From NCBI GenBank assembly GCA_900314465.1, contig OMVK01000006.1:87-64086 (forward strand): a stretch of DNA of 64,000 nt. Reading direction: 5' to 3'. Every line of letters starts with the position of its first letter. Within the stretch, counting starts at the first letter, position 1. This DNA is from an uncultured bacterium (GTDB lineage Bacteria; Bacillota_I; Bacilli_A; RF39; UBA660). This document shows, in pieces, positions 2,639 through 59,615 of the stretch. A model generated the notes under the pieces. That model did no database searches. It worked only from the letters and a program-made list of their open reading frames with translations, and was not told the DNA's origin. The translations under genes were made by a program, and so were the position numbers.

Positions 2639-2848
2639 CTATTTTTTAACTGGATCATAACCACCAATGTTAAATGGATTACATCTTAATATTCTTTTTA
2701 TCGCAAGTATACTACCCTTAAATACCCCATAATACTCAATAGCTTCAATTGCGTATTCTGAACAACTCGGAACAAATTTACAATTATTATGCGTACTAAT
2801 AGGCATTCTTTGATATAACCTAATTAATTTAATTATTAGTTTCTTCAT
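2639..2848 (-). CDS. yidD: membrane protein insertion efficiency factor YidD
   Basis: 69 aa. [13 protein letters not shown]...[19 protein letters not shown]...[16 protein letters not shown]...GYDPV is the canonical YidD sequence. Confidence 0.9.
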
Positions 2849-3641
2849 TAAATATCTTACTTTCTATTTCTTTACCATTTTTATCATATAAACATACCCT
2901 AATATTTAATAATAAATCATGAATGCTTCTTTCATCATCTCTTAATATCATAACAATAATAAATGCAAGTTCATAAAAATATTGAATATAAGAATTAATC
3001 TTATATATATTAATGTAAGTATTAATATCTTTTATATTAACAATAAATATATTTACTAATAAGAATATTGTTTCTGATATTAATATAGCTTTAATAAGAT
3101 ATTTCCATAAAGGTATATCTTTTTTAGGATTACTATTATATACAGTCTTTAATCTAAATAACAACTTACCTACAGTTTTGCCATGTAAGATAAATTCAAG
3201 TATTCCAAAATATAATATATATACAATAATATCTATAATATACATATTTCTATTATAAGTATTAATCTGATATACAAACTTATTATATGTATCATTATAT
3301 TCATTATTTATATTAGTAAGTATTTCTTTATTTTTATCTTCACTTACTTCTTCATCTATATTAATATCTTTAAAACATTCACTAAAATAAGAATAATTAG
3401 TAAATAAAGTTTTATATTCATCACTATCTATCTTATTATCTTCAAAAAAAGAATTATAATTTTCTGTTAACTCACTATATTGTCTTGTTAAATTACTTTG
3501 ATATTCCATAACTTGATTAGCATCATTTTTACTAGGATTAATATAACTAATAAAAGATAAACCTAAGATAATAAAATAACATAATAACATATCTAACATA
3601 AATGCAAGTATTCTATAAATAAGTTTCTTCATGATAATCAC
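2829..3641 (-). CDS. RDD-family membrane protein with a large internal low-complexity insert
   Basis: N-terminal [11 protein letters not shown]... plus later [15 protein letters not shown] resemble RDD-domain motifs. Several TM helices. Confidence 0.45.
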
Positions 3642-3747
3642 CTATAAATTTTATTATACTATAAAATAATATTAAAAAACTATTATTTTATTAACCTAAT
3701 TGCTTTTTATATTAAATAATAGTAATATTTTTTTAGGAGTTGATTTA

Positions 3748-4071
3748 ATGAGTACAAATACAATTATATCAGGTATTATTATTGCTATTGTATTAGTTAT
3801 AATATTACTAGTAGTACTTAAATTAAATAAAAAAGATTTTAATTTAGAAGTTAATAAGTTAGTTCAATATTTAGGAGGAAAAGATAATATTTTAGATACC
3901 GAAGTTAATATGTCTAGATTTAAAGTTACATTAAAAGATGTATCTAAAGTAGATAAAGAAGGTATACAAAAACTTGGTGCTAAGGGTATTGTTGAAGTAG
4001 ATAATCAATTAAAAATTATCTTTGGTGATAATTCTAAAGCATTAAAAAGATATATTGATGATATGAAATAA
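3748..4071 (+). CDS. membrane-anchored PTS EIIB(Glc)-like domain protein lacking the phospho-Cys
   Basis: AGGAG RBS 8 nt upstream of ATG at 3748. Single N-terminal TM. LVQYLGGKDNILDTEVNMSRFKVTLKDVSKVDKEGIQKLGAKGIVEVDNQLKIIFGDNSKAL aligns residue-by-residue with the PtsG EIIB domain (GGKENI..LDACITRLRV..DVSKVD..GLKKLGA.GVV..G..VQ.IFG..S..L) but has NMSRF in place of CITRL. Confidence 0.6.
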   Translation: MSTNTIISGIIIAIVLVIILLVVLKLNKKDFNLEVNKLVQYLGGKDNILDTEVNMSRFKVTLKDVSKVDKEGIQKLGAKGIVEVDNQLKIIFGDNSKALKRYIDDMK

Positions 4072-4099
4072 ACTCGTTAAAAAAACGAGTTTATTTTTA
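4070..4099. terminator. bidirectional rho-independent terminator between convergent genes
   Basis: aaactcgtt-aaaaaaa-aacgagttt hairpin flanked by T/A runs on both strands. Confidence 0.6.
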
Positions 4100-4101
4100 T
4101 C

Positions 4102-4314
4102 TTAGATATCTTTAATATTAGTTACTTTATAATCTAAATTAGTAATCTTATCAGTTATTTCATCATTACTAATATTATTACCCTCAACTATAGCTTTACC
4201 TTTCTTTAAATCAACTTTTACTTTTTTAATACCATCAATACTTTTTAAAGCATTAGTAACACTAATAACACAATGATTACACATCATTCCTTCGATATCA
4301 ATTTCTTTTTTCAT
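4102..4314 (-). CDS. copZ: copper chaperone CopZ (HMA domain)
   Basis: 70 aa. GMMCNHCVISVTNAL is the MxCxxC heavy-metal-associated motif. Confidence 0.9.
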   Translation of the reverse strand: MKKEIDIEGMMCNHCVISVTNALKSIDGIKKVKVDLKKGKAIVEGNNISNDEITDKITNLDYKVTNIKDI

Positions 4315-4324
4315 TTTATCACTC

Positions 4325-6499
4325 CTATTTAATTTTATTTAATCTTAATGCATTTAATATAACTGTAATTGATGATAACATCATAGAAATAGATGCTATC
4401 ATTGGATTAATAGTTATATAATTTCTAAATAAACCAGTAGCTATTAATATCATAATAATATTATAAAAAAATGCCCAAAATAAATTTTCTTTTATTATTT
4501 TTTCAGTCTTTTTACCAATCTTAAATAAATCTATTATCTTTGATAAATTATCATTAATAAGTATGACATCTGATGCATTAGATGCTATATCAGTACCACT
4601 TCCAAGAGTAACACTTACATCACTTCGAGCAAGACTTGGGGCATCATTTATCCCATCTCCAACCATCATGACTTTGTGATTATCACTTTGAAGACTACTT
4701 ATTTTTTCTTCTTTATCTTTTGGTAATACTTCAGATATTATATTATCTATATTTAACTTCTTACCAACACTTTCAGCAAGTATCTTACTATCACCAGATA
4801 ACATATAGACACTTTTATCCATCTTTTTAAGTTCACTAATTGTCTTTTTAGCATCACTTCTAATAACATCACTTACGCCTACTAAACCAATAACTTTATA
4901 ATCTTCCACTAAATATAATATCGTATTATTATCTTTTTCTAATTTAATTTCATCATCTAAATGATCATTTTTAATATTATATTTATTTAATAATTTATTA
5001 TTACCTACTAAATAAGTTTTCTTATTAATAATACCTTTTAATCCCATACCATTAATAGTTTCACTATTAGTAACATTATATTTATCATAATCACTAAATG
5101 CACTAGCTATCGGATGAGTAGATATGCTTTCAAGTGATGATATTAATTTTAATAACTCATTATCTTTATTTTTAGAATAATTATATACTTTAGCTACTTT
5201 TAATTTACCATATGTAAGTGTACCAGTTTTATCAAATATAATATTATCTATATTATTAACATTTTCAAAAACACTACAACTTTTAACAAGTATTCCTCTT
5301 TTAGCTGATGCACCAAGTGATACAATTACAGCAAGTGGTGTTGCAAGACCAAGTGAACAAGGACATGCAACAACTAATACATTAACAAATGCTTCAAGTG
5401 CATAATTTTTATCAACAAATAAGTAAATAACTAAAGTAACTATTGCAACAAGCATTACCAAAGGAACAAATATACTGCTTATTTTATCTGCAATACGTTC
5501 TGATTTAGTCTTAGAATTACTTGCATTAATTACTAAATGAACTATCTCAGATATCGTAGATTTAGGTCCTATTCTCGTAGCTTTATATTCAATATACGAA
5601 TCCATATTAAGTGAACCAGCAATTACTTCATCATTAATACTTTTTTTATAGTATTTAGATTCACCAGTAATAAATGCTTCATCAAAGTGAGCACTACCTT
5701 TAGTAATAATACCATCAGTTGCTACCTTCATACCTGGTTTACAAATTAAGATATCTCCTTCATTTACTTCATCAATAGTAACTTTTTTTTCTGAATCTTT
5801 AGTTTTTAATAAAGCATAATTAGGTGTAATAGTTACTAAATCTTTTATTGCATCTTTAGTATGTTCTCTTGAAGAAACTTCAATAGTTCTACCTAATTTA
5901 ACAAAATAAATAACAGTCATACAAGATTCAAAATATAAACTATTAACATAATCATAATTACCATTAAATATATATATCATATGCATAAAAGAATATATAA
6001 ATGAAGCAAATACACCAATAGTAACTAAACTATCCATATTAGGATCTTTATGTATTAAATCTATTAGACCTCTTTTAATAATACCTATTCCATAAATAAT
6101 ATATACAAGTGCAAATATACACATAAATAATGAATAAATAACTGGATAATTCATATTAATATATGGAATACTAGGTAACATAAACATATTACTCATAGAT
6201 ATATACATAATTATAACTAATAAGATACCAAATATAATTAAAGATTTAATATTATTATTTTTTTTATTTAAGTCTTTTTTGGGATCAAATATACCAGCAT
6301 ATGTATATCCTGAGTCATTAATAAATTTACCTATTTTATCTACATTTAATTTTTTATCATCATACGTTACTTCAGCTTGATTTAATATTAAATTAACTTT
6401 AGCATCTATAATACCATCTTGTTTATTTAAATATTTTTCAACATGATTTGAACAAGCAGAACAAGACATACCATCTACATTTAAAATAATCTTCTTCAT
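4325..6499 (-). CDS. copA: copper-translocating P1B-type ATPase
   Basis: N-terminal HMA (GMSCSACSNHVEKYL), CPC transmembrane metal site, DKTGTLT phosphorylation motif, MVGDGINDAP hinge. Confidence 0.95.
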   Translation of the reverse strand: MKKIILNVDGMSCSACSNHVEKYLNKQDGIIDAKVNLILNQAEVTYDDKKLNVDKIGKFINDSGYTYAGIFDPKKDLNKKNNNIKSLIIFGILLVIIMYISMSNMFMLPSIPYINMNYPVIYSLFMCIFALVYIIYGIGIIKRGLIDLIHKDPNMDSLVTIGVFASFIYSFMHMIYIFNGNYDYVNSLYFESCMTVIYFVKLGRTIEVSSREHTKDAIKDLVTITPNYALLKTKDSEKKVTIDEVNEGDILICKPGMKVATDGIITKGSAHFDEAFITGESKYYKKSINDEVIAGSLNMDSYIEYKATRIGPKSTISEIVHLVINASNSKTKSERIADKISSIFVPLVMLVAIVTLVIYLFVDKNYALEAFVNVLVVACPCSLGLATPLAVIVSLGASAKRGILVKSCSVFENVNNIDNIIFDKTGTLTYGKLKVAKVYNYSKNKDNELLKLISSLESISTHPIASAFSDYDKYNVTNSETINGMGLKGIINKKTYLVGNNKLLNKYNIKNDHLDDEIKLEKDNNTILYLVEDYKVIGLVGVSDVIRSDAKKTISELKKMDKSVYMLSGDSKILAESVGKKLNIDNIISEVLPKDKEEKISSLQSDNHKVMMVGDGINDAPSLARSDVSVTLGSGTDIASNASDVILINDNLSKIIDLFKIGKKTEKIIKENLFWAFFYNIIMILIATGLFRNYITINPMIASISMMLSSITVILNALRLNKIK

Positions 6500-6505
6500 A
6501 TATAC

Positions 6506-6787
6506 CTACTTAATCTTATCTATTAAGTCCATTACTTCATCAATAACATCTGTATTTCCCTCTTTAATATCATCAGTAACACAGGTTTCTAAATGAACTT
6601 TTAGTACTTCACTTTCAAGACTTTTAATAGAATTAACAATAGATGATAATTGAACCAATACATCATAACAATATCTATCATCACTAATCATTTTACTAAC
6701 ACCATTTATTTGTCCAGATATTATATTTAATCTTTTAATTAATTTCTTTTTATCTTCATCACTTCTAGGCACATTTTTATGTTTCAT
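6506..6787 (-). CDS. csoR: CsoR-family copper-sensing transcriptional repressor
   Basis: 93 aa. RLNIISGQINGVSKMISDDRYCYDVLVQLSSI...H..C is the CsoR/RcnR fold with conserved Cys/His. First gene of the csoR-copA-copZ operon. Confidence 0.85.
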   Translation of the reverse strand: MKHKNVPRSDEDKKKLIKRLNIISGQINGVSKMISDDRYCYDVLVQLSSIVNSIKSLESEVLKVHLETCVTDDIKEGNTDVIDEVMDLIDKIK

Positions 6788-30311: not shown

Positions 30312-33248
30312 TTATCTTGATCTACCTTGTTCTTCATTATTAGACTTATCATTTAAATAATTACTCATCATTTCAGTAACTTCATCACCATATTTATTTG
30401 AATATGCATACTGATTCATTGTTGATGCAACACGTGTTGCTAATACAGTAGCACTAGCAGCTGATATGATTGTAGTTAACATATCACTTGGTAAACTTGA
30501 TAAAGCAGTTACTTGTTCAGCAGTAAGTCCAGCTAACTCAGTTCCATATTGAACAGCTTGTAATTCAGCTTGATTAGCATTTAAGATAGCATCTGGATGA
30601 CTAACAATATATTCCATAGCTTCTTGTGTTGCATGTAAATCAAATTGTGGATGACTTTGAGCATAAACTTTTAATACATCAAGACCTTCTTGAACAGTTT
30701 CATTAAGAGCTTTTTGTGATTCTTGACTAATAGTAGTTAATTGTTTTAAGGCATCTTGTGCGTTAATTGAACCAGTTGCATAATCAGATGCTGTTTGATT
30801 AATTTGATTATTAACACTATCAAAATTATTATTAAAATATTGATGATTTGCTGGATCCATTGTATGGTAACTATCATTAAATGTCCAGTTGTTACTATCA
30901 AGTGCAGTTCTTTCTTTAACATCAGCTACAGTAAGTGTATCTTGATAAGATTTAGCTTTTTGCCCTTCAGCAAAGACATCTGCTTTACCTTGAAGGTCTT
31001 TACCAATATCATTAGCACGATCAACAGTTTGATTATTTGCAGCATTTATTCTAGCAGCTTCTGCTTGTTGCTGTTGTAGTAGTTGTTTATCAGCTAAATT
31101 AACACGTACAGCATTTACAGCACTAATTGCAGATGAAACTATAGCAATTGTTGTAAATAAATCAGTAAAGAATGGATCATCTCTATAATCTAATTGTTTT
31201 ACTAGAGGTGAATAATATTTTTTACCAGAACTTCTTCTTCCAAAGAAACTATTACTTATTTCTGTATTTTCAGAATATATTTTTTCTTTTTCTACAAAGT
31301 TCTTAACGATACCTTCAGCATCACCATTAGCTCTTGCAGTTTCAAAGCCATTATCAGCTTTAGCTAGTCTTGCTTGTAATTCATTGTCAAAATCATAAGA
31401 CTTTGCAAATCTTCTACCTTGATAATTCATTTTAGTAGAAGTCGCTTTAAAGTCTTCATGCAATCCATGAATACCACTAGAAGCAAGATTATTAGCTTTA
31501 ATTCTTGTATCGTTAATTTCTAATACAATAGATGAAGCATTTTGATATAATTGTGTTCTCTTATTTTGAAGAATATTTTTCTTGTTAGAATCTTTTTCTT
31601 TAGCAATTTGTGAATCTAGTACATCTATTTCTTTTAATAAAACAAATAATTTTTTGTAATCACTAGTAATTACTTCATTATGTTTATCTAACTTATTAGT
31701 TAAATATTCAGATATTTTTGCTTCTATTAAACTATTTATTGAATTATTACTATCAGTTATTAATAAACTACCTTTATATTCATTAGCTAATACTTCTAAT
31801 TCTTCATCAGATAATTCATCTAATCTTCCTTTAATTGTATCAATAACATCTTTCATCTTTTTAGATTTACTACCTAAAGTATGTCTAATTATTGGATAAA
31901 TTAATCTTTGAACTCCCTTCTTAAAAAATCCAACTACATTATAAATCCAATTATCTTCTTTTAATTCTTCTTTAAATTTTTTAGAAACTTTAAGATTTCC
32001 ATAAGTATATTTCTTTCCTGTATTTTTCTTTATATCTAGTCCATCAGTAAGTTTAGCAATAATTCCTTCTACTGAAGGTTTAACCTTAATATTTTTATCT
32101 TCTTTTTTAGGTTCAGGTAATTCTGGAGTTACGTCATCTATTGTCTTTCCAGGTAATCTTGGTATTTCATCACCAATTGTCTTTCCAGGTAATCTTGGTA
32201 TTTCATCTTTATTCTCATTTTTCTCTAAATCAAGTGTTATATATCTTATCTTAACAGTATATCTAGAATAAGGATTTTCATTTTGTCCATCATAGATCTT
32301 TCTTACATTATCTTCAGAAATTTCATAATAATCTTCACCATTTTGTTTTATAATTGTACTTTCATCTCTAGAAATTTTAAATCTATCAAAAACATCTTGC
32401 TTTGCAAAATATTTTTTTGAATTAATATCTTGTAAGAAAACATATTCAGGAATATCGCCTTGATTGTCAACATCATTTTTCTTATTTTCTTCAGGACCCT
32501 TGTTTTCTTCATGAATATGTTCTTGTTCTTTCTTTTTATCATCAGCAGATAAAGCAATTGGAGTAAAAGGTTGTCCATCAATAATTGCTGCTCTTTCAAA
32601 ATCCTCAGTCCCTGGTATATAGCCTTCTGCTACATAATCATCATATGCTTCAGGATTCATATGATATTCTTCTGCAGTTGGTACATGTTCAGTATTTTCT
32701 TTAGCTTCTTTACGTCTATTCTCTTCTTGAACTAATGCATCATATTCTTTTTCTAAATCACTATTTTCTTCAAGACCGTTTTCTTGATGTGCTAGAAAAT
32801 TATATAAATCATTAATTTGTGATTCTAATTCTTCATCACTCAATTTTGAAGAATCAAATGGCAATTCACTATCTTTTTTTTCTTTTTCCTGTTCACTAAC
32901 ATGTGTTTCTTCATGTTTAACCATTTGTTTTAATTCATCTAATGTAACAGGTTCTTTTTGATTTAAACGATCAACACTATAATCCCTATCAACAATAGCA
33001 CCCTTAGTTGAATCAGCACTAAAAGTAAATAAATCACTATTAATTAAATCATCAAATCTTAAATAATCAACATGATTCTCACCAACATTTTTTTGATCAA
33101 TTAAATCTTCACAATATTTAATTTCACTTTCAACTCTTTTAGCATCATCAGGTGTTTTAACTTCATTTATTCTTATTAAATATAAATTATATAAAACATC
33201 TATTTCTGCCATAATTGAATCTTTAATATTATCATTCATATTTTTCAC
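30312..33248 (-). CDS. large (978 aa) multidomain protein, function unknown; acidic coiled-coil N-terminal half, tandem 12-aa repeat, compositionally distinct Q/A/T-rich C-terminal region
   Basis: Tandem DEIPRLPGKTIG/DEIPRLPGKTID repeat from an exact 36-nt duplication near 32140-32215. C-terminal 330 aa are enriched in Ala/Gln/Thr, and the DNA there is visibly less AT-rich. Confidence 0.45.
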   Translation of the reverse strand: MKNMNDNIKDSIMAEIDVLYNLYLIRINEVKTPDDAKRVESEIKYCEDLIDQKNVGENHVDYLRFDDLINSDLFTFSADSTKGAIVDRDYSVDRLNQKEPVTLDELKQMVKHEETHVSEQEKEKKDSELPFDSSKLSDEELESQINDLYNFLAHQENGLEENSDLEKEYDALVQEENRRKEAKENTEHVPTAEEYHMNPEAYDDYVAEGYIPGTEDFERAAIIDGQPFTPIALSADDKKKEQEHIHEENKGPEENKKNDVDNQGDIPEYVFLQDINSKKYFAKQDVFDRFKISRDESTIIKQNGEDYYEISEDNVRKIYDGQNENPYSRYTVKIRYITLDLEKNENKDEIPRLPGKTIGDEIPRLPGKTIDDVTPELPEPKKEDKNIKVKPSVEGIIAKLTDGLDIKKNTGKKYTYGNLKVSKKFKEELKEDNWIYNVVGFFKKGVQRLIYPIIRHTLGSKSKKMKDVIDTIKGRLDELSDEELEVLANEYKGSLLITDSNNSINSLIEAKISEYLTNKLDKHNEVITSDYKKLFVLLKEIDVLDSQIAKEKDSNKKNILQNKRTQLYQNASSIVLEINDTRIKANNLASSGIHGLHEDFKATSTKMNYQGRRFAKSYDFDNELQARLAKADNGFETARANGDAEGIVKNFVEKEKIYSENTEISNSFFGRRSSGKKYYSPLVKQLDYRDDPFFTDLFTTIAIVSSAISAVNAVRVNLADKQLLQQQQAEAARINAANNQTVDRANDIGKDLQGKADVFAEGQKAKSYQDTLTVADVKERTALDSNNWTFNDSYHTMDPANHQYFNNNFDSVNNQINQTASDYATGSINAQDALKQLTTISQESQKALNETVQEGLDVLKVYAQSHPQFDLHATQEAMEYIVSHPDAILNANQAELQAVQYGTELAGLTAEQVTALSSLPSDMLTTIISAASATVLATRVASTMNQYAYSNKYGDEVTEMMSNYLNDKSNNEEQGRSR

Positions 33249-45400: not shown

Positions 45401-47572
45401 CTAATTATTTATTTTTGGTTTATCTACATATATATTTTTACTAATACTATTAGTATTACCATCATTATCAGTTAATATACATGTTATTTGATTATTACCT
45501 AATTCAAGTTCAGAAGTATTATTAATAATCTTATAATTACTAATACATTTAATATTCTTTATATTACCTAAATTAACATAACTAGGTACATAATACATAT
45601 CTCCAATAGTTATATTATCTGGTATATTATCTAAATTGAATTCTTTATTTTCTTTATTCTTTTTACTAGTAGTACTTAAGTATTCTTTATCATTTGATAA
45701 TATATTAATTTTCTTAGAAGACGTACTTGTATTTCCATCAAGTGCTGTGATAACACATGTTATATTATGTTCTCCCTCACTTAGTTCATTAGTATTATAA
45801 ACTTTTGTATTATCATCTAAATTACAAGATACAAAACCTGTATCATGATTTCCATAGCTATAATAACTAGGTATTGAATAATTACTACCAACACTTACCT
45901 CATCAGGTATATTATCTAAACTAATAGATACACTAGTATTATCTTTAGAACCAATAGTAGAATAATTCATACTTATATAAACAGAATCTATATCAGTTAT
46001 ACTCTTAGTAACAATCTTATTATTTTCATATACTTTTTGATGCTTAATAGACATAGCATCTATTTTAGTATTTCCATATACACTTAATGTACCATCATAA
46101 GTTTTCCATTCACCATCATTAATACGATATAATTTTTCATCTGCAATCGTATCATAAACAATATTAATATTAGTCTTATCAGATACATTTACACTATAAT
46201 TATCTGGTCTAATATCAACATAAAGTGAATTATCTGGTGTAATAATATATTCATTATTATTAAGTACATATTTAATTATTATATTATTAACATCACTATT
46301 TTTAATATATAAAGAATTAGTATAATACTCCCAATCATCACTCATTCTTGAATATGTATTATCTTTAATACGATACATATATTGAGTAGCATTACTTGGA
46401 TAATTTAAATTAATATATGAATAATTATCTTCTACTTTATCATCAGTTTTACTAGGTATAACATTAATATTCTTATTTACTTCAATAGTATATCCATTAT
46501 TACCTACTAAATCACAAGTTATTTTATGTTCACCTAATGGTAATTCTTTAGTATTTTCAATACTAATATTACTATCATAATAACAAATAGTAGTACCATT
46601 AGTATTACTAAATTTAGTAACTGTAGGTACATTTATATCATCTTGATAAGTTATTATACTAGGTATACTTTGTAAAGATATACTTGGTATAGTATCATCA
46701 TTTATAACACTTGTAGATGATGATGTAGTAGTTCTTATACCTGTAGTTACTTTAAAAGAGGCAATAATACTATTATCTAAAGTATCACTTACTTTAACTT
46801 TAATATTATATGTTTTATTATTTTCTAGATTACTAAATATATAAGATTTATTACTTTCAATATATTCAGAATCGTCAATAGAATAATAATATTTACTAAT
46901 ACCACTTAAAGCATCACTGGCACTAACATTAACTTCGATACTCTTACTTGTAGTAATAGTATTAATAGAGCTTATTACAGGTGCTTCTGAATCTATTTGT
47001 ACTTTTAATCTATTTGATAAATATGATTCATCATTATTTTCAGATACACCTTTAAACCAAACAAACCAAGAACCAGATAAACTTATTTTCACACTCTTAG
47101 TATATGTATCATGCCATTCACATTCATCACTATTTCTATTATTACTAATACAATATTTATAATAAGATACATTAGCATTATTAAATTCAGCATCATCAGA
47201 AACATATATGACTTTAGATAAACTATAGCCACTAGATGACTCTTCAATAGTTGGATACCCACCAAAAAATGGTGCAGATACTTTACTGTTAATATAATAT
47301 ATAAAAGCAAAGATAATTATAAGAAGAATAAATAAAGGATATAATTTAATTCTACTAGGATATATTTTTAATACTTCACCATCTTTGATAATATGACCTA
47401 TCTTAGGTTCAGTTCTAGCAACACAATTCTTATCAATAAATAAAGTTATTACTTTTTTATCTTCGATATGATATTTAATCTTGTGTTCATCAAGTTCATC
47501 ACCAGCAATATCAAGCTCTAGATTTCTAATATCTGGTACAATTTTTCCCTTTATTTCTTTTTCTTTCTTCAT
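45401..47572 (-). CDS. bitopic surface protein: ~75-aa cytoplasmic N-domain, TM, then multiple Ig-like/Big-type beta-sandwich repeats
   Basis: TM LYPLFILLIIIFAFIYYINS. Repeated ~90-aa segments with shared ...Y...ELSEGEHNITCVIT.LDGNT / ELPLGEHKITCDLVGNNG / ELELGNNQITCILTDNDGNT motifs (3 copies). Confidence 0.5.
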   Translation of the reverse strand: MKKEKEIKGKIVPDIRNLELDIAGDELDEHKIKYHIEDKKVITLFIDKNCVARTEPKIGHIIKDGEVLKIYPSRIKLYPLFILLIIIFAFIYYINSKVSAPFFGGYPTIEESSSGYSLSKVIYVSDDAEFNNANVSYYKYCISNNRNSDECEWHDTYTKSVKISLSGSWFVWFKGVSENNDESYLSNRLKVQIDSEAPVISSINTITTSKSIEVNVSASDALSGISKYYYSIDDSEYIESNKSYIFSNLENNKTYNIKVKVSDTLDNSIIASFKVTTGIRTTTSSSTSVINDDTIPSISLQSIPSIITYQDDINVPTVTKFSNTNGTTICYYDSNISIENTKELPLGEHKITCDLVGNNGYTIEVNKNINVIPSKTDDKVEDNYSYINLNYPSNATQYMYRIKDNTYSRMSDDWEYYTNSLYIKNSDVNNIIIKYVLNNNEYIITPDNSLYVDIRPDNYSVNVSDKTNINIVYDTIADEKLYRINDGEWKTYDGTLSVYGNTKIDAMSIKHQKVYENNKIVTKSITDIDSVYISMNYSTIGSKDNTSVSISLDNIPDEVSVGSNYSIPSYYSYGNHDTGFVSCNLDDNTKVYNTNELSEGEHNITCVITALDGNTSTSSKKINILSNDKEYLSTTSKKNKENKEFNLDNIPDNITIGDMYYVPSYVNLGNIKNIKCISNYKIINNTSELELGNNQITCILTDNDGNTNSISKNIYVDKPKINN

Positions 47573-53858: not shown

Positions 53859-56654
53859 TTAATTTTCACTAAAGAAATCATCATAATATTCATCATCATT
53901 ATCTTTCTTTGGTTTAATTACTTTAGCATCACTGTCTGCTTTAATAATATTACTAGGACTAACAACTGGTTTATTAACATTAGTACTATTAGCTTTAATT
54001 AAACTTTCAAAGTTATTAGTATTTTGATTACTTAGACTATTAGTATTATTACTTGGAGTATCATCAAGTACATCTAAGTCATCATCATCTTCATCTTTAC
54101 TAGTTTCTTCTTTAATTGGTTTATTATCATTTTTAAATAAATCAGCAAAATTATTAGATTTATTCTCTTCAACAGTTTTAGTACCATCTTTACCTTTAAC
54201 ATAATCTTGATAATATGTCTTAGTAGGATCTTCAATACCAGAAAGTCTACTAGTATCAACATTATTATTAGTTAAATCTACATCACTAAGTTTATTTAAA
54301 TTATCAGGTGTAACATGTATAGTAGGTTTCTTAGATTCATGGTGTTCATATAAATCTATATTATTATCAAAATTATTTGTAATTATTGGTTTATTATTAG
54401 TAGTTTTCTTTTCTTTTTTATCATCATCGAAACTTATCTTATTACCTGAAATACTATTAAAATCAATTAAATCTCCAGCATCAATATCATCATCTGGATT
54501 TTTATCATCTTCATTTGATTTATTATCTTTACTTGAAAAATTAACTTCTTTACTATCTTCTTTAGGAGTATTAAATGGATTTAAAGGAATATTTTTATTA
54601 CCTATTCCATCAGTTTGTTCCTTTTTATCTTTCTTTTCTTCTTCTTCAAGTCTAGCAATTTCTTTATCAATATTTTTAATGACAGCATCTAAATTAAATG
54701 ATGGTTTAGGTTTAGTAGGTTTATCTTTAATACCATTATAAAAATCATCAAAAGATGGAATATTTTTATTAAATGGATTACTAGAACTACTATTTAAATT
54801 ATTCATACCACCAGATAAAATATCTGCAAAACTTGGTTTGTTTGATTCTACAAATGGTGATTGACTAAAACCACCTGTACCAGAGCCAAATCTACCACTA
54901 CCAAATGGTGAATCATTCTTTCTAGAACGAGCACGAACATCAACAAATTTACGAATATCAAATAATTTAATATCTCTTGATTCTCTTGTTGGAAGTTCAC
55001 ATGGTGCTGTCCATTCTTTATCACCCCAGTCAACATTATAACTAGGTCTTAATTTAGTTCTAAATGGGAACATACGATTTCTAATAATAATTACTTCATT
55101 AGGTTGTAACTTTTGTAAATCAGATACAGTAATTAATGGAACAGAAGCAGTCTTATCATCTTTTTTACTCTTAACCTCACCACATAGTTTACTTATTTCT
55201 TCAAGTGCTGAAAGTTCTGTAGTAAGTAAGTACATTAAGTTAGCACAGTTTGATCTAATTGTTTGTGATTCTTCTTTACCATAAACTTCATCAAGCTGAG
55301 CATAGTTCTGTATGATAAATGTAAATCTAATTGCACGTGAACGAGCAGCAGTAACCATTGTTGTAATATCTTTAATCGCAGGCATATTAGCAAACTCATC
55401 AAGTAAGTAATTAGTTCTAACTGGAAGTTTACTACCTGGACTATTCTGAGCAACATCAATTAATGTTTCATAAGATTGTTTAATAAATATAGATGCAAGA
55501 GCATGATAAGTTGTCTTTTCATCCTGTACGATAATAAATACTGCAGTTTTTTGTTTACCAATGGATTCCATATCAAAATCAGAAAATGAAAGCATTTCTG
55601 CTAAATTCTTACGTGCAGCAAATATACGTATTTTTTGTCTAAATGTTGAAAGTATTGAACCCTTCGTATCAGATGGTGCTGTAATAGTATTATTTGCAAA
55701 TACATAAGCTGGTGAACTCTCACCCTTCATCTTAAAATATTCTTTAATATATGTACTATTACCACCGAATTTATCTTCACCAACAGTAGTCATATAGTTA
55801 ACTGATGAAATATTACACTCTTCCTCAGTAGCATCATCCATTAAACCTAATATATTACCAGCAAGATAATCGGCTGCTGAATCTTGCCAGAATGGATCGG
55901 CTTGACTATTTTTATCTTTCATAATATTAGATGCAACATCATCTACTAGTTCTTGTGCTTTATCAGTATTTCCAGCTTTATATAATCTGTATGGAATTGT
56001 TAAAGGATTCCATGAATTACCCTGTTGTGGATTACGGAAATTTAAAACAATAATATTATAACCTTTATGTTTTAAGAAAGTACCATGATTACGATATATT
56101 TCACCCTTAGGATCGGTAAATATCATAGATTCTCCTGCTTTTGCAAGAGAATAAGTCATTGGATCAATTACAGCTGTTGTTTTACCAGAACCAGTAACAC
56201 CGACAACTAATGTGTGGTTTTCACTATTATCTACCCACATATTTTTACCATCATTAATAAATACGACACCACCAGCTGTAGCATCTTCATCTTGGACGCC
56301 AACCTTAACAATTTTAAATGCCTTCTTCATTTCTTTTTCTTCAAGCCATCTTGAATATCCATCTGATGCATGTTCACCAATTTTTAATCCAGGTCCACCA
56401 GAAACACGTTCAAAAATAGTTGATGATACACTAGCAAAAATAAATATTAATACGCCAAAAAATACAAGTAATGTTGCTGGTAAATACTTAAAAGAGAATC
56501 CTTCAATCGGATTTAAGCCATACAACTCACCATCGTTAATTACCGAAAACAAATTAAGAACAGCAATTGAACAAAAATATAATAAAACAATACAAAATAA
56601 AACAAATAAGGTAAAGTCTTTAGAAGTAACCTTAATCTTCAATTTAAGCTTCAT
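53859..56654 (-). CDS. type IV secretion coupling protein (VirD4/TraG family T4CP) with long disordered C-terminal tail
   Basis: Two N-terminal TM helices. Walker A VGVTGSGKTT with downstream TDPKGE hallmark of TraG/VirD4. Walker B-like FIIVQDE...LLDEFAN. Last ~330 aa are N/D/K/S/G-rich and end DDEYYDDFFSEN. Confidence 0.85.
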   Translation of the reverse strand: MKLKLKIKVTSKDFTLFVLFCIVLLYFCSIAVLNLFSVINDGELYGLNPIEGFSFKYLPATLLVFFGVLIFIFASVSSTIFERVSGGPGLKIGEHASDGYSRWLEEKEMKKAFKIVKVGVQDEDATAGGVVFINDGKNMWVDNSENHTLVVGVTGSGKTTAVIDPMTYSLAKAGESMIFTDPKGEIYRNHGTFLKHKGYNIIVLNFRNPQQGNSWNPLTIPYRLYKAGNTDKAQELVDDVASNIMKDKNSQADPFWQDSAADYLAGNILGLMDDATEEECNISSVNYMTTVGEDKFGGNSTYIKEYFKMKGESSPAYVFANNTITAPSDTKGSILSTFRQKIRIFAARKNLAEMLSFSDFDMESIGKQKTAVFIIVQDEKTTYHALASIFIKQSYETLIDVAQNSPGSKLPVRTNYLLDEFANMPAIKDITTMVTAARSRAIRFTFIIQNYAQLDEVYGKEESQTIRSNCANLMYLLTTELSALEEISKLCGEVKSKKDDKTASVPLITVSDLQKLQPNEVIIIRNRMFPFRTKLRPSYNVDWGDKEWTAPCELPTRESRDIKLFDIRKFVDVRARSRKNDSPFGSGRFGSGTGGFSQSPFVESNKPSFADILSGGMNNLNSSSSNPFNKNIPSFDDFYNGIKDKPTKPKPSFNLDAVIKNIDKEIARLEEEEKKDKKEQTDGIGNKNIPLNPFNTPKEDSKEVNFSSKDNKSNEDDKNPDDDIDAGDLIDFNSISGNKISFDDDKKEKKTTNNKPIITNNFDNNIDLYEHHESKKPTIHVTPDNLNKLSDVDLTNNNVDTSRLSGIEDPTKTYYQDYVKGKDGTKTVEENKSNNFADLFKNDNKPIKEETSKDEDDDDLDVLDDTPSNNTNSLSNQNTNNFESLIKANSTNVNKPVVSPSNIIKADSDAKVIKPKKDNDDEYYDDFFSEN

Positions 56655-56704
56655 TTGTCTTCCCCTTTTCTAAAAAACATTATAATATAAATATAATATT
56701 TTTA

Positions 56705-57442
56705 CTATACAAACTTATTACCATTTTTAATCTTTATCCAAATAAAAACAATTAAAGAAATAACAATAATAAGTATTATAATTAATATTAAATAAAATTT
56801 ATTAAAACTACTATCATCACCAAGTAGACCACTACCACTATTTTTATTCTTATCACTAATAATTGTCGTTGTTGTAGTTGTGCTTGTTGTAGTTTCTATT
56901 ATTAAATTACCATTTTCATCTATTATTGCTCTTTGCTCTTCACTTGTATTTTCTTCACTTACTTTACTAGTAGTACTTGTAGTTACTGTCGTACTATTTG
57001 TACTTGAGTTATTATTACTTGAGCTATTACTACCTGAAATACTTGAACCATTACGTTCTTTAATAAAATCACTAGCAGAAATTGTTATTCTCAAACTACG
57101 ATTATTATTATATTCATCACCAAATATACCACTAACTTTTAATTTACCAAACTTATCAGGATTACCATCAGTAAAAGTACATATTCCATAATAAAACTTA
57201 AGGTCACCTTTAGAAACTTCAGGAATAGATGCTCCAAAACTATTTTCTTTTCTTAATGTATAACTAACAAGACTATTACTACCATCATAAAAATATATAT
57301 CTATTCTATCTATATTAAATCCAGAAGCACTCTGTAATATATTAGTTGAAACATTAACAGAATTATAATTATCAGCTTTAGCTGAAAAAGGTAGTGCGAC
57401 AAAAAATAGCATAATAAATAATATAATTTTGTATTTATTCTT
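56705..57442 (-). CDS. conjugation-cluster surface protein (signal peptide, Ser/Thr/Asn-rich stalk, C-terminal TM anchor)
   Basis: Signal MKNKYKIILFIMLFFVALPFSAKA. SSNNNSSTNSTTVTTSTTS low complexity. C-terminal FYLILIIILIIVISLIVFIWIKIK. Confidence 0.4.
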   Translation of the reverse strand, partial: KNKYKIILFIMLFFVALPFSAKADNYNSVNVSTNILQSASGFNIDRIDIYFYDGSNSLVSYTLRKENSFGASIPEVSKGDLKFYYGICTFTDGNPDKFGKLKVSGIFGDEYNNNRSLRITISASDFIKERNGSSISGSNSSSNNNSSTNSTTVTTSTTSKVSEENTSEEQRAIIDENGNLIIETTTSTTTTTTIISDKNKNSGSGLLGDDSSFNKFYLILIIILIIVISLIVFIWIKIKNGNKFV

Positions 57443-57665
57443 CATTCCCAGCATTATCCTCATTTCCAACATTAGCACCAACTGTCCAATCAATTTCATT
57501 TCCATAGTCATCTGTTCCAAGAGTTTCAGTTGAAAAATTTTTTAATGAAGAACTGATTTCATTATTTTTTCTTTTATTATTTCCATAAGCTAATGCAATA
57601 ATTAAATAAATAGAAAAAATAATAACAATTATAATTAGAAATTTAATAATTCCTTTATTCATTTT
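57435..57665 (-). CDS. small single-TM protein in conjugation cluster
   Basis: MNKGIIKFLIIIVIIFSIYLIIALAYGNNKRK..., 76 aa. Overlaps neighbours by a few nt (operon packing). Confidence 0.3.
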   Translation of the reverse strand, partial: KMNKGIIKFLIIIVIIFSIYLIIALAYGNNKRKNNEISSSLKNFSTETLGTDDYGNEIDWTVGANVGNEDNAGNEE

Positions 57666-57681
57666 TATCACTCCCGTAATT

Positions 57682-59592
57682 TTAATTAGAAAACTCCCAA
57701 TAAGCATTGGCTTGTGTAGATAAATAAGAAACAGTATATTTCTTGCCAGATTTATCAGCATGTTTTGAATTTGGATCATTTAATACAACATATCCATCAT
57801 CTGTTACACCAGTTAGTACAATAAAGTGACCATGACTTGTAAATTCACCAGCATGACAAGACATAATAACAGGATGTCCAGCTTTTAATGCACTTATAAT
57901 TGACTCTGATGATATTTGTTTACATTTTAATCCATAATAACCTGCAACTGCAGACATTATTGACCAACTTTGACCAGCGCCGCCAACATAAAAATTATTA
58001 TAATTACCAGTCTTATTTTCAATCATTTTAACTACATCTGAAGGATAAACCCATTTTGAACTATCAGTACCACCCTTTAAATAAGAAATAACCATTGCAA
58101 GTGAAGTTACTGAACATCCAGAAGAGCTTATAGTACCTCCACCAAATGCAACATTAGACCATGGTTGATTACCACTTTGAGAATAATAGACAACTGGATT
58201 ATTTCCACCATTATTTGGAATTTTATAATTAGATGCAACAATACCTAAATCTTGAACAGTAGAAGAAGTAACATTATTAAATTCATCACTAAAATTTATA
58301 TTGGCAGTAGCATAACTATCATTTAATCTATAATACTTAGTATAAATAGATGTTGCACTTTCAACAGCACCGTCGTTATTAGTAACATGAACCCATTTAT
58401 CACTACCATTATAAATACCAAAAAAATCCGTACTAGTACTACAACTATCTATAACGCCAAAGTCACCCATTTTTAAATCTTGTTCAGTTACTTCAGTAAA
58501 TAACGATGTATCACTGAATTTATCGCATCCAACAACTCCTGGATCATTTCCGGAAACACTCCATAAAAGATATCTAAGATATCCACTATATCCAATAGTT
58601 TTATTTTTTGATGGAGAAGAACTAGTAGGTTCTTTGCCACTTTCAAAAACAACTTTATTGGCAACTAATAAATAAGCACTTCCATAAACTTTAGAAGAAG
58701 TACTATCATCTGAAGTAACCATTTTTTCTATTTCATTATTATAATAACTATCATCATTATATAAATAATCATAATCACCAGAAGAAATGATACCATCAGC
58801 ATCTTCACCACTATTAGTTAAATCATTGTAGAGTTGAATTACAGGTGCAAGTATTACAACAAATAATATCAAACCTATAAGTATTCCTCCAACAATTGGA
58901 AGTGCCGCAATAATAATTTTCCTAGCAATAGGATTTTTGAGAATATTAGAAATTTTAGCCTTTCCACTATCTGCTCCTGATTGTGTTTCTGTCTCATTTT
59001 TTTCTTCTTGTTTGTCTTTACCAAATAAATTTGAAGGACTTAAATTATTCTTTATTGAATTACCAATATTACTTAAAGAACTTTTAAGGCCTGTATTATT
59101 GAGATCATTATTCTCAGGCAATTCTCTTTCATCTGGCAATCCCTGACCATTACTTAATTCACCTGTTTCATCGTTAGAATTTGCTTTTGCATTTATTCTA
59201 GCAACATTTTTATTTCTAAAATTATCAGGTACTATCTTTTCACCATTCTTTTTAATATTTTTAGCTTCTTTTAAAGCACTTGCACCAGCACCAACTAAGC
59301 CACCTTTAGCATACCCAACAGCAATATTTTTAGCCGATTTTCCTAAATTTTTAGCGGCATCTACTCTTTGATTAATATCACTAGGCATATTACCAAATGC
59401 ATCTTTTTCATTTATTTTTGTAGGATCAACTGGACCATTTATTTTATTTTTACCAATATCATTAATATTACTATCTTTTTTTTGATCAATATCTTTAATC
59501 GAAGGCTTATTATTACTAGTTAATTTATTAATATCATTATTAATATTATTTTGATTACTAGTATTATTAGTATCTACATTATTACTATTCAT
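57682..59592 (-). CDS. bitopic protein with extracytoplasmic papain-like cysteine peptidase domain (C39-like / NlpC-P60 superfamily)
   Basis: About 230-aa cytoplasmic N/K-rich region, TM (IIIAALPIVGGILIGLILFVVILAPVI). C-terminal domain with SSGCSVTSLAMVISYL (Cys nucleophile context) and SHGHFIVLTGVTDDGYVVLNDP (His) as in the Peptidase_C39_2 family. Confidence 0.5.
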   Translation of the reverse strand: MNSNNVDTNNTSNQNNINNDINKLTSNNKPSIKDIDQKKDSNINDIGKNKINGPVDPTKINEKDAFGNMPSDINQRVDAAKNLGKSAKNIAVGYAKGGLVGAGASALKEAKNIKKNGEKIVPDNFRNKNVARINAKANSNDETGELSNGQGLPDERELPENNDLNNTGLKSSLSNIGNSIKNNLSPSNLFGKDKQEEKNETETQSGADSGKAKISNILKNPIARKIIIAALPIVGGILIGLILFVVILAPVIQLYNDLTNSGEDADGIISSGDYDYLYNDDSYYNNEIEKMVTSDDSTSSKVYGSAYLLVANKVVFESGKEPTSSSPSKNKTIGYSGYLRYLLWSVSGNDPGVVGCDKFSDTSLFTEVTEQDLKMGDFGVIDSCSTSTDFFGIYNGSDKWVHVTNNDGAVESATSIYTKYYRLNDSYATANINFSDEFNNVTSSTVQDLGIVASNYKIPNNGGNNPVVYYSQSGNQPWSNVAFGGGTISSSGCSVTSLAMVISYLKGGTDSSKWVYPSDVVKMIENKTGNYNNFYVGGAGQSWSIMSAVAGYYGLKCKQISSESIISALKAGHPVIMSCHAGEFTSHGHFIVLTGVTDDGYVVLNDPNSKHADKSGKKYTVSYLSTQANAYWEFSN

Positions 59593-59615
59593 ATTAAACC
59601 TTCTTTCTAATATAT

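What the first reader, a model, noticed from the sequence alone, without database searches (positions are those of the whole stretch)
3748..4071. Membrane-tethered standalone EIIB(Glc)-like domain with the phosphorylatable cysteine replaced (CITRL to NMSRF)
The 70-residue C-terminal domain aligns convincingly with the glucose-family PTS EIIB domain, including the GGKxNI, DVSKVD, KLGA-G and IFG blocks. The active-site Cys that receives phosphate from EIIA is replaced by Met, and there is no EIIC partner. Only a single TM anchors it. It is divergently transcribed from the RDD gene and ends in a clean terminator. This could be a decoy or regulatory EIIB-like protein that competes for EIIA(Glc) or Mlc-like regulators, or a remnant of a lost PTS permease.
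Basis: partly seen in the sequence, partly recalled or inferred. Interest (0 to 1): 0.55.

Follow-up and report, generated by a model that had tools for sequence, protein, structure and literature searches.

The report
Membrane-anchored cysteine-less EIIB-like protein
This small gene encodes a membrane-tethered copy of a sugar-transport phosphocarrier domain that has lost its catalytic cysteine; it is not a decaying remnant but a conserved protein shared by hundreds of gut Bacilli/Mollicutes-like species and by Mycoplasma genitalium (MG_129), and its real job is still unknown.

Summary
Window 3748..4071 (+) encodes a 107-aa protein with one N-terminal transmembrane helix and a C-terminal domain. 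The domain passes the Pfam PTS_EIIB threshold and models onto E. coli IIB(Glc) at about 1 Å rmsd.

It is not a remnant. Close relatives were found at 542 places in species-representative genomes (gut Bacilli/Mollicutes/Erysipelotrichales MAGs). dN/dS against the nearest orthologues is about 0.06-0.14. None of 85 orthologues has Cys at that column.

More distant members occur in Eggerthia, Sharpea and a TGA=Trp Mollicute. M. genitalium MG_129 (M. pneumoniae MPN_268), the long-known "orphan PTS EIIB", has the same architecture and also lacks the Cys.

No PTS gene was found in the window or in about 0.98 Mb of window plus related DNA.

The best reading is a catalytically dead, cytoplasm-facing EIIB-fold module held at the membrane, acting through protein contacts rather than phosphotransfer. 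The only published partner candidate is FtsY, proposed for MG_129/MPN_268 from an AlphaFold3 screen and one crosslink. That link is weak and untested here.

Verdict: a new member of a known but functionally uncharacterised kind, of moderate interest.

The parts
3735..3739 (+). Shine-Dalgarno-like AGGAG, 8 nt upstream of the ATG
   Evidence: Read directly from the sequence.
3748..4071 (+). Coding sequence of the 107-aa membrane-anchored Cys-less EIIB-like protein (stop TAA at 4069-4071)
   Evidence: ORF list and sequence. Homologues of 101-126 aa start at the same Met.
3763..3819 (+). Single N-terminal transmembrane helix (about residues 6-24), predicted N-out/C-in
   Evidence: Hydrophobic stretch; modelled as a helix over residues 3-25. 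Among 79 unique orthologues the N flank carries 0.13 K/R and the 10-aa C flank 2.9 K/R. Conservation is periodic, peaking at 100 degrees (permutation p=0.009), with a conserved face at positions 9, 12, 16 and 19.
3844..4068 (+). EIIB(Glc)-fold domain (residues 33-107)
   Evidence: Pfam PF00367 at 35.5 bits, above the cut-off of 27. NCBIfam glucose-family EIIB regions match at E down to 1.7e-13. PDB phmmer E about 7e-12. Foldseek rmsd about 1.0 Å to 3bp3_A, 1o2f_B and 3bp8_C.
3907..3927 (+). Degenerate active-site loop N54-M-S-R-F-K-V60, equivalent to E. coli C421-I-T-R-L-R-V
   Evidence: Alignments. In 85 orthologues the first column is N76/E3/S3/H2/T1, while S56 and R57 are invariant.
4065..4097 (.). 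Hairpin with an A-run before and a U-run after it, in the 30-nt gap before the convergent copZ gene; likely a bidirectional intrinsic terminator
   Evidence: RNA fold dG -14.3 kcal/mol, z -5.75, matched by 0 of 200 shuffles. Not listed by the consensus scanner.
2829..3641 (-). Divergently transcribed RDD-family membrane protein gene. This is context, not shown to be a functional partner.
   Evidence: Pfam PF06271. The RDD/YidD pair lies upstream in 21 of the 84 related loci with a called gene.

Best explanation
The gene encodes a pseudo-EIIB: a glucose-family PTS EIIB fold that can no longer accept phosphate on cysteine. One N-terminal transmembrane helix holds the domain on the cytoplasmic face of the membrane.

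It belongs to a vertically inherited family that spans gut RF39/RFN20-like Bacilli, Erysipelotrichaceae and Mycoplasmatales. The family includes M. genitalium MG_129 and M. pneumoniae MPN_268.

Its likely origin is the 3' end of a ptsG-type gene (last EIIC helix plus EIIB). It was then kept for a function that does not involve phosphotransfer.

I infer that it works as a membrane-localised protein-protein interaction module. The soluble domain would bind a cytoplasmic partner. The conserved face of the helix would contact a membrane partner or a second copy of itself. The only candidate partner with any data is the SRP receptor FtsY, which would place the protein in co-translational membrane targeting.

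Shown here: fold, loss of the Cys, purifying selection, family membership and lack of linkage to PTS genes. Inferred: topology, origin and the adaptor role. Speculative: the FtsY partner, to which I give about 0.2-0.25 on its own.
For: - Fold and homology.
- Cys replaced in every family member examined.
- Purifying selection, with dN/dS 0.06-0.14 against the nearest orthologues and many invariant domain residues.
- Breadth: 542 confirmed relatives in species-representative genomes. Also Eggerthia and Sharpea and a TGA=Trp Mollicute.
- Relationship to MG_129: hhalign 97.6%, E=3e-12 over 103 columns including the TM helix. BLASTP E=8e-11. The domain-only family HMM beats the canonical EIIB HMM for MG_129, P0268 and P0310.
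- Synteny: TrpRS, NAD kinase and the EIIB-like gene lie close together and in that order in L087, L088 and M. genitalium; an ArsC/Spx-family gene lies between TrpRS and NAD kinase in L087 and M. genitalium. In L087 a pseudouridine synthase gene and a divergent FtsW/RodA gene also separate NAD kinase from the EIIB-like gene.
- Topology and conserved helix face.
- No PTS genes in 65 window ORFs or in 0.98 Mb of window plus related loci.
- Origin: the canonical fragment P0257 (last TM, KTPGRED linker, EIIB) aligns with family members across TM helix plus domain.
- FtsY: AlphaFold3 ipTM 0.70-0.71 for the MPN_268/MG_129-FtsY pairs, plus one in-cell crosslink (PMC13047044).
Against: - No partner was identified here, and gene context gives no operon partner. 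The gene is mostly monocistronic, and its neighbours vary (RDD/YidD, a CotZ-like protein, TyrRS, a histidine kinase).
- The FtsY link rests on a structure-prediction screen and a single crosslink spanning 33.4 Å in the model. It concerns distant homologues at 32% identity.
- The S-R pair of the old active-site loop is invariant in the gut clade but lost in MG_129 (T-Q). The two ends of the family may therefore not share one function.
- The whole genome could not be checked for PTS genes.
Confidence: 0.72

Rival explanations
1. PTS-linked regulator or decoy. The membrane-bound, permanently 'unphosphorylated' EIIB surface binds EIIA(Glc), HPr or an Mlc/ROK-type repressor, and so tunes sugar signalling.
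For: - The loop that contacts EIIA(Glc) and Mlc in E. coli IIB(Glc) (established knowledge from PDB 1O2F and 3BP8) is largely kept apart from the Cys. M55 replaces Ile422, S56 replaces Thr423, R57 is retained, and K59 replaces Arg426. S56 and R57 are invariant in the gut clade.
- From my own knowledge of the E. coli literature, membrane anchoring is what Mlc sequestration requires.
- Family members also occur in organisms with a PTS: M. genitalium has HPr (MG_041), and most Erysipelotrichales genomes encode PTS systems (PMC7301438).
Against: - No EI, HPr, EIIA or EIIC was found in the window or in 0.98 Mb of window plus related loci.
- Most uncultured environmental Tenericutes are reported to lack PTS (PMC7301438).
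- The Cys-column residue ranges from neutral (N, S, T, G) to phosphomimetic (D, E).
- MG_129 has lost the Arg.
- No ROK/Mlc-type regulator is linked. The ROK gene in L087 encodes only 291 aa, which is more like a kinase (inference).
Confidence: 0.13
2. Cell-envelope or division factor. The protein acts with membrane machinery such as FtsW/RodA, RDD/YidD or the Cys-rich CotZ-like neighbour.
For: - A divergent FtsW/RodA gene lies immediately upstream in the Eggerthia-like locus, and one lies within a few kb in many gut-clade loci.
- RDD with YidD is upstream in 21 of 84 loci and the CotZ-like gene in 37 of 84.
- The TM helix has a conserved face.
Against: - From my own knowledge, M. genitalium keeps MG_129 but has no cell wall and no FtsW.
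- The neighbours are divergent or convergent, not co-transcribed, and they differ between clades.
Confidence: 0.1
3. Non-functional remnant (pseudogene-like fragment) of a lost EIICB permease.
For: The architecture equals the last TM helix plus the EIIB domain of a ptsG-type protein, and the catalytic Cys is gone.
Against: - dN/dS is 0.06-0.14, and more than 25 domain positions are invariant across 85 orthologues.
- The ORF is intact at 542 places in species-representative genomes and in minimal Mycoplasma genomes.
- It has its own RBS and terminator.
Confidence: 0.02
4. Still an active phosphocarrier that uses a residue other than the canonical Cys.
For: S56 and R57 next to the lost Cys are invariant in the gut clade.
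Against: - The Cys-equivalent column is not conserved in the wider family.
- No donor or acceptor PTS proteins were found nearby.
- The S-R pair is absent from Mycoplasma-lineage members: MG_129 has T-Q at those positions and P0268 has S-S.
Confidence: 0.03

Closest known systems
EIIB domain of E. coli PtsG, IICB(Glc) (PDB 3BP3, 1O2F, 3BP8, 1IBA)
   Same: Same fold, at 0.9-1.0 Å rmsd over 72-73 residues and 40% identity. Same sequence blocks (LGGK-NI, xx[ST]R, DVSKVD, KLGA-G, IFG). Follows a transmembrane helix and faces the cytoplasm.
   Different: Cys421 is replaced by Asn and Arg426 by Lys. There is no EIIC domain (one helix only) and no KTPGRED linker. No PTS partners were found nearby.
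M. genitalium MG_129 / M. pneumoniae MPN_268, the 'orphan PTS EIIB' (UniProt name, from memory: 'Putative phosphotransferase enzyme IIB component')
   Same: About 110-aa protein with one N-terminal TM helix and a Cys-less EIIB-like domain. Full-length profile match at 97.6% probability. Intermediate family members share its TrpRS, NAD kinase, EIIB-like gene neighbourhood.
   Different: Only 32% identical in the domain. MG_129 has also lost the Ser-Arg of the loop (T-P-T-Q). In the window the neighbours are RDD/YidD and a cop operon, not NAD kinase. The host here uses TGA as a stop codon and has peptidoglycan-related genes.
Cys-containing EIIB(Glc) domains in other arrangements: soluble tandem repeats and EIICB(B)(A) permeases (e.g. 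P0138, P0214, P0224, P0257)
   Same: Homologous domain, and in permeases the same position after a TM helix.
   Different: These all keep the C-x-[ST]-R motif and are either multi-domain or attached to a full EIIC. The single-helix proteins of about 100-140 aa are uniformly Cys-less.

Membership tests
PTS EIIB type 1 (glucose family; Pfam PF00367) | Sequence match above the curated family threshold | tested here: met
   PF00367 at 35.5 bits against a cut-off of 27, E=6.6e-9. The NCBIfam domain model TIGR00826 scores 41.0, below its cut-off of 45.75.
PTS EIIB type 1 (glucose family; Pfam PF00367) | EIIB(Glc) fold: four-stranded antiparallel sheet with three helices | tested here: met
   AlphaFold2 model with domain pLDDT about 76-88 and elements H-E-E-H-E-E-H. 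Foldseek to 3bp3_A, 1o2f_B and 3bp8_C at rmsd about 1.0 Å, probability 1.00.
PTS EIIB type 1 (glucose family; Pfam PF00367) | Phosphorylatable Cys in the C-x-[ST]-R-[LIV]-[RK] loop | tested here: not met
   Asn54 aligns with Cys421. None of 85 orthologues has Cys there.
PTS EIIB type 1 (glucose family; Pfam PF00367) | Works with an EIIC (fused or in the same operon) and an EIIA/HPr/EI chain | tested here: inconclusive
   None in 65 window ORFs and none by tblastn in 0.98 Mb of window plus related loci.
MG_129/MPN_268-type membrane-anchored orphan EIIB-like proteins | About 100-125 aa, with a single N-terminal TM helix followed by one EIIB-like domain | tested here: met
   MG_129 sequence taken from the supplement of PMC13047044.
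MG_129/MPN_268-type membrane-anchored orphan EIIB-like proteins | No Cys at the active-site column | tested here: met
   Window N; MG_129 T; P0268 T; P0310 T; Eggerthia D; Sharpea N.
MG_129/MPN_268-type membrane-anchored orphan EIIB-like proteins | Significant sequence relationship to MG_129, closer than to canonical EIIB | tested here: met
   hhalign 97.6%, E=3e-12. BLASTP E=8e-11. MG_129 scores 44.3 bits on the family domain HMM against 37.1 on the canonical one; P0268 scores 71.6 against 53.9; P0310 scores 55.1 against 41.7. The margin for MG_129 itself is modest.
MG_129/MPN_268-type membrane-anchored orphan EIIB-like proteins | Conserved TrpRS, NAD kinase, EIIB-like gene neighbourhood (with an ArsC/Spx-family gene in between in some genomes) | tested here: not met
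   Present in M. genitalium and, with extra genes in between, in L087 and L088. Absent from the window and the gut clade, where the neighbours are RDD/YidD or a CotZ-like gene and TyrRS.
MG_129/MPN_268-type membrane-anchored orphan EIIB-like proteins | Interaction with FtsY (proposed, not established) | not testable with these tools
   Published AlphaFold3 ipTM of 0.70-0.71 and one crosslink, for the Mycoplasma proteins only. No multimer prediction was available here.

The most novel reading that the evidence does not exclude
The family is a conserved membrane tether or receptor for the SRP receptor FtsY, functionally analogous to eukaryotic SR-beta. It would have been built from a dead PTS domain and retained from Mycoplasma to hundreds of gut RF39/RFN20-like and Erysipelotrichaceae species, independently of any sugar PTS.
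Probability: 0.15. Interest if true: 0.8.

Novelty: new member of a known kind. Interest (0 to 1): 0.45.

Why it matters
MG_129 has been annotated as an unexplained 'orphan EIIB' since the first M. genitalium genome (from my own knowledge). This analysis places it in a large family that is Cys-less throughout, membrane-anchored and strongly conserved. The family also occurs in gut lineages where no PTS genes were found nearby. That argues for a function unrelated to sugar phosphorylation.

The result gives a clear pseudo-enzyme case. It also gives a large alignment with a conserved helix face and invariant surface residues, which can be used to design binding and depletion experiments. It warns against counting this gene as evidence of a PTS in metabolic reconstructions of uncultured Bacilli and Mollicutes.

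Tried and rejected
- A profile of very diverse members (A2) could not be used to scan genomes, because it has no conserved 7-10-residue stretch. A closer alignment (A3) was used instead, so the genome scan reports only the gut clade.
- Word-indexed searches with the distant members P0268 and P0271 returned almost nothing. They gave no further organism names.
- Cluster look-ups named only Eggerthia, Sharpea and Erysipelotrichaceae.
- Literature searches for MPN268/MG_129 found one relevant paper. Searches on gene numbers and on JCVI-syn3 gave nothing useful.
- The consensus scan gave promoter-like sites no more often than in shuffles (9 found against a mean of 9.1) and no terminator. The hairpin was confirmed by folding instead.
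- Rfam found no RNA family in the window, so there is no riboswitch or leader upstream.
- Operon-based inference was abandoned, because the gene is mostly monocistronic and its neighbours vary.
- The ROK gene near the Eggerthia-like copy was considered as an Mlc-like partner. I rejected it because it is short (291 aa) and not conserved in other loci.

Full report
**1. What is in the sequence**

Window 3748..4071 on the + strand is an ATG-initiated ORF of 107 codons, with AGGAG 8 nt upstream. The mechanical ORF list extends it to a TTG at 3700. Homologues of 101-126 aa start at the ATG, so the ATG is the real start.

It is one of the few + strand genes in a very AT-rich window (20-28% G+C) whose genes lie almost entirely on the - strand.

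Upstream, 106 nt away and divergent, is an RDD-family gene (2829..3641). Beyond that lie yidD and a LemA-like gene. Downstream and convergent is a copZ-copA-csoR cluster (4102..6787), followed by an HD-domain ORF (weak Pfam match) and the TyrRS gene.

The 30-nt gap before copZ holds a 14-bp hairpin flanked by an A-run and a U-run (4065-4097). Its dG is -14.3 kcal/mol with z = -5.75. The simple terminator scanner missed it.

**2. The domain is a genuine EIIB(Glc) fold**

- Pfam PTS_EIIB matches above threshold, at 35.5 against 27 bits.
- NCBIfam models of glucose-, NAG-, maltose- and sucrose-family IIBC proteins all match only in their EIIB region, with E down to 1.7e-13. No NCBIfam family specific to this protein exists, and TIGR00826 falls just below its cut-off.
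- phmmer against the PDB finds E. coli IIB(Glc) at E about 7e-12.
- An AlphaFold2 model (pLDDT 76-88 across most of the domain, falling to about 70 near the C-terminus) superposes on 3bp3_A, 1o2f_B and 3bp8_C at 0.9-1.0 Å over 72-73 residues.

**3. The catalytic Cys is gone**

The alignment places Asn54 opposite Cys421, Met55 opposite Ile422, Ser56 opposite Thr423, Arg57 opposite Arg424 and Lys59 opposite Arg426. Its text ('replaced by Met') is off by one residue.

**4. It is a large, conserved family, not a relic**

- The first protein search returned 7241 hits. The best 120 are all 101-126 aa and 73-99% identical, and where named they are called 'PTS transporter subunit EIIB [Bacilli bacterium]'.
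All 80 loci kept come from uncultured MAGs labelled Bacilli, Mollicutes, Tenericutes, Mycoplasmatota or Erysipelotrichales, plus a few labelled Muribaculaceae or Clostridium that I suspect are mislabelled bins. The sources named in the record titles include Hadza samples, rabbit ('Lapin'), goat, sheep and deer.
- Among 85 orthologues the Cys column is N76/E3/S3/H2/T1. S56, R57 and more than 25 other domain positions are invariant. dN/dS against the nearest orthologues is 0.06-0.14, with dS near saturation.
- In the exhaustive representative search, every single-domain protein of about 100-140 aa whose alignment covers that column lacks the Cys there. Its place is taken by N, E, M, S, D, K, G, I or T. 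Cys-containing hits are tandem soluble EIIB repeats or fragments of EIICB(A) permeases.

**5. Topology and the helix**

The N-terminal flank is about 4 residues long with almost no K/R (0.13 on average). The 10 residues after the helix carry 2.9 K/R on average. By the positive-inside rule the domain is cytoplasmic, as in PtsG (inference).

Conservation along the helix is periodic, peaking at 100 degrees (permutation p = 0.009). The conserved face is Y9, I12, L16 and I19. This suggests specific helix packing rather than a passive anchor. The window protein itself has Gly at position 9, where 76 of 79 unique orthologues have Tyr.

**6. Wider family and MG_129**

- More distant members are found in cultured Erysipelotrichaceae: Eggerthia catenaformis, Sharpea azabuensis and Sharpea porci. 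Another lies on a contig that reads TGA as Trp, which marks it as a Mycoplasmatales- or Entomoplasmatales-type Mollicute.
- In the Eggerthia-like locus the order is TrpRS, ArsC/Spx, CYTH, NAD kinase, RluD, FtsW (divergent), then the EIIB-like gene. In the TGA=Trp contig it is TrpRS, a hypothetical gene, NAD kinase, then the EIIB-like gene.
- The supplement of PMC13047044 gives the M. genitalium order MG_126 trpS, MG_127 Spx, MG_128 NAD kinase, MG_129. It also gives the MG_129 sequence: 117 aa, an N-terminal hydrophobic helix, then ...CGGKENFVNIKTTPTQLIVTFKD....
- MG_129 aligns with the family profile over 103 columns including the helix (hhalign 97.6%, E=3e-12). It is 32% identical to the window protein (BLASTP E=8e-11).
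- MG_129 has Thr at the Cys column. It scores better on a Cys-less-family domain HMM than on a canonical EIIB HMM, 44.3 against 37.1 bits. P0268 scores 71.6 against 53.9 and P0310 55.1 against 41.7.
- Erysipelotrichales, RF39 and RFN20 are reported as neighbouring clades of Mycoplasmatales (PMC7301438). The distribution therefore fits vertical inheritance from their common ancestor.
- I could not place the window in RF39 or RFN20 specifically. It uses TGA as a stop codon and carries peptidoglycan-related genes: a MurJ-like flippase, VanY, M23 peptidases and FtsEX.

**7. Relation to the PTS**

- No PTS family other than this domain was found in 65 window ORFs of at least 90 aa.
- tblastn with HPr, EIIA(Glc), EI and two EIIC-containing proteins found only the EIIB-like gene itself in 0.98 Mb (window plus 88 loci).
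- PMC7301438 reports that most uncultured environmental Tenericutes genomes lack PTS, whereas most Erysipelotrichales and pneumoniae-group genomes encode it.
- Taken together, the family appears to occur both with and without a PTS. This is an inference and is not proven for this genome.

**8. Origin**

A truncated canonical protein, P0257, consists of the last EIIC helix, the KTPGRED linker, EIIB with Cys, and EIIA. It aligns with family members across both helix and domain, for example 36% identity over 129 residues with the gene in L086. The simplest origin is therefore the 3' end of a ptsG-type gene (inference).

**9. Mechanism**

Shown: the protein cannot act as a Cys phosphocarrier, it is under selection, and it is not linked to PTS genes.

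Inferred: it is a membrane-localised interaction module.

The only partner with any data is FtsY. An AlphaFold3 all-by-all screen gave ipTM 0.70-0.71 for MPN_268-FtsY and MG_129-FtsY. One in-cell crosslink exists, although it spans 33.4 Å in the model. The authors suggest moonlighting in co-translational secretion.

I treat this as a lead worth about 0.2-0.25, not a finding. In the gut clade the S-R of the former active-site loop is invariant, while in MG_129 it is lost. The partner or ligand may therefore differ across the family.

Gene context gives no operon partner. The upstream divergent gene is the RDD gene (with yidD) in 21 of 84 loci and a Cys-rich CotZ-like gene in 37 of 84. TyrRS lies close by in 35 loci, downstream and convergent in 33 of them. 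A histidine kinase gene follows directly in 10 loci.

**10. Verdict**

It is a new member of a known but functionally uncharacterised kind, the MG_129/MPN_268-type orphan EIIB. Interest is moderate. The value lies in showing how broad and how conserved this pseudo-EIIB family is, and that it should not be counted as a PTS component.

Noticed in passing
window 4102-6787: A copZ-copA-csoR copper-resistance cluster lies between the EIIB-like gene and the TyrRS gene. Related genomes (for example L001-L007) have one or two small unrelated ORFs there instead, so the cluster looks like a lineage-specific insertion.
   Followed up: partly
window 53859-63971: Genes typical of a conjugative element: a VirD4/TraG-type coupling protein (53859-56654), a C39-like peptidase (57682-59592), a large M23 peptidase (60655-63192) and a TraG/VirB4-like P-loop ATPase (63210-63971). 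This is probably an integrated conjugative element running off the window end.
   Followed up: no
related loci L020-L086 (for example L083 5420-5869): The commonest divergent upstream neighbour of the EIIB-like gene (37 of 84 loci) is a Cys-rich protein of about 150 aa that matches Pfam Spore-coat_CotZ in L001. It has no homologue in the window. Its role in these reduced gut Bacilli is unexplained.
   Followed up: partly
proteins P0138, P0171, P0214, P0232, P0245 (representative search): Soluble proteins made of 2-4 tandem EIIB(Glc) domains, each with the catalytic Cys and with no EIIC or EIIA. This arrangement is unfamiliar to me and was not investigated.
   Followed up: no
window 3772-3774 (residue 9): The window protein (and its 99%-identical relative P0001) has Gly at helix position 9, where 76 of 79 unique orthologues have Tyr. 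Tyr9 is part of the conserved helix face.
   Followed up: no
window 30312-33248 and 45401-47572: Two long ORFs (977 and 722 aa) with no Pfam match at E <= 1e-4. Many other ORFs between 11 and 19 kb also have no Pfam match.
   Followed up: no
L088 5701-6081: This contig reads TGA as Trp (in-frame TGA at codon 4, where the database protein has W). A genetic-code-4 Mollicute therefore carries a family member directly after the NAD kinase gene, as in M. genitalium.
   Followed up: yes
proteins P0135 (282 aa) and P0124 (226 aa): Apparent fusions of the EIIB-like protein. P0135 has a multi-helix membrane N-terminus joined to the EIIB-like domain. P0124 has a C-terminal extension resembling a glycosyltransferase. 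They may be real fusions, frameshifts or assembly chimeras.
   Followed up: no
window 1-64000: Strong strand bias (almost all genes on the - strand), negative GC skew throughout, and 20-28% G+C. No Rfam family reaches its gathering score.
   Followed up: partly
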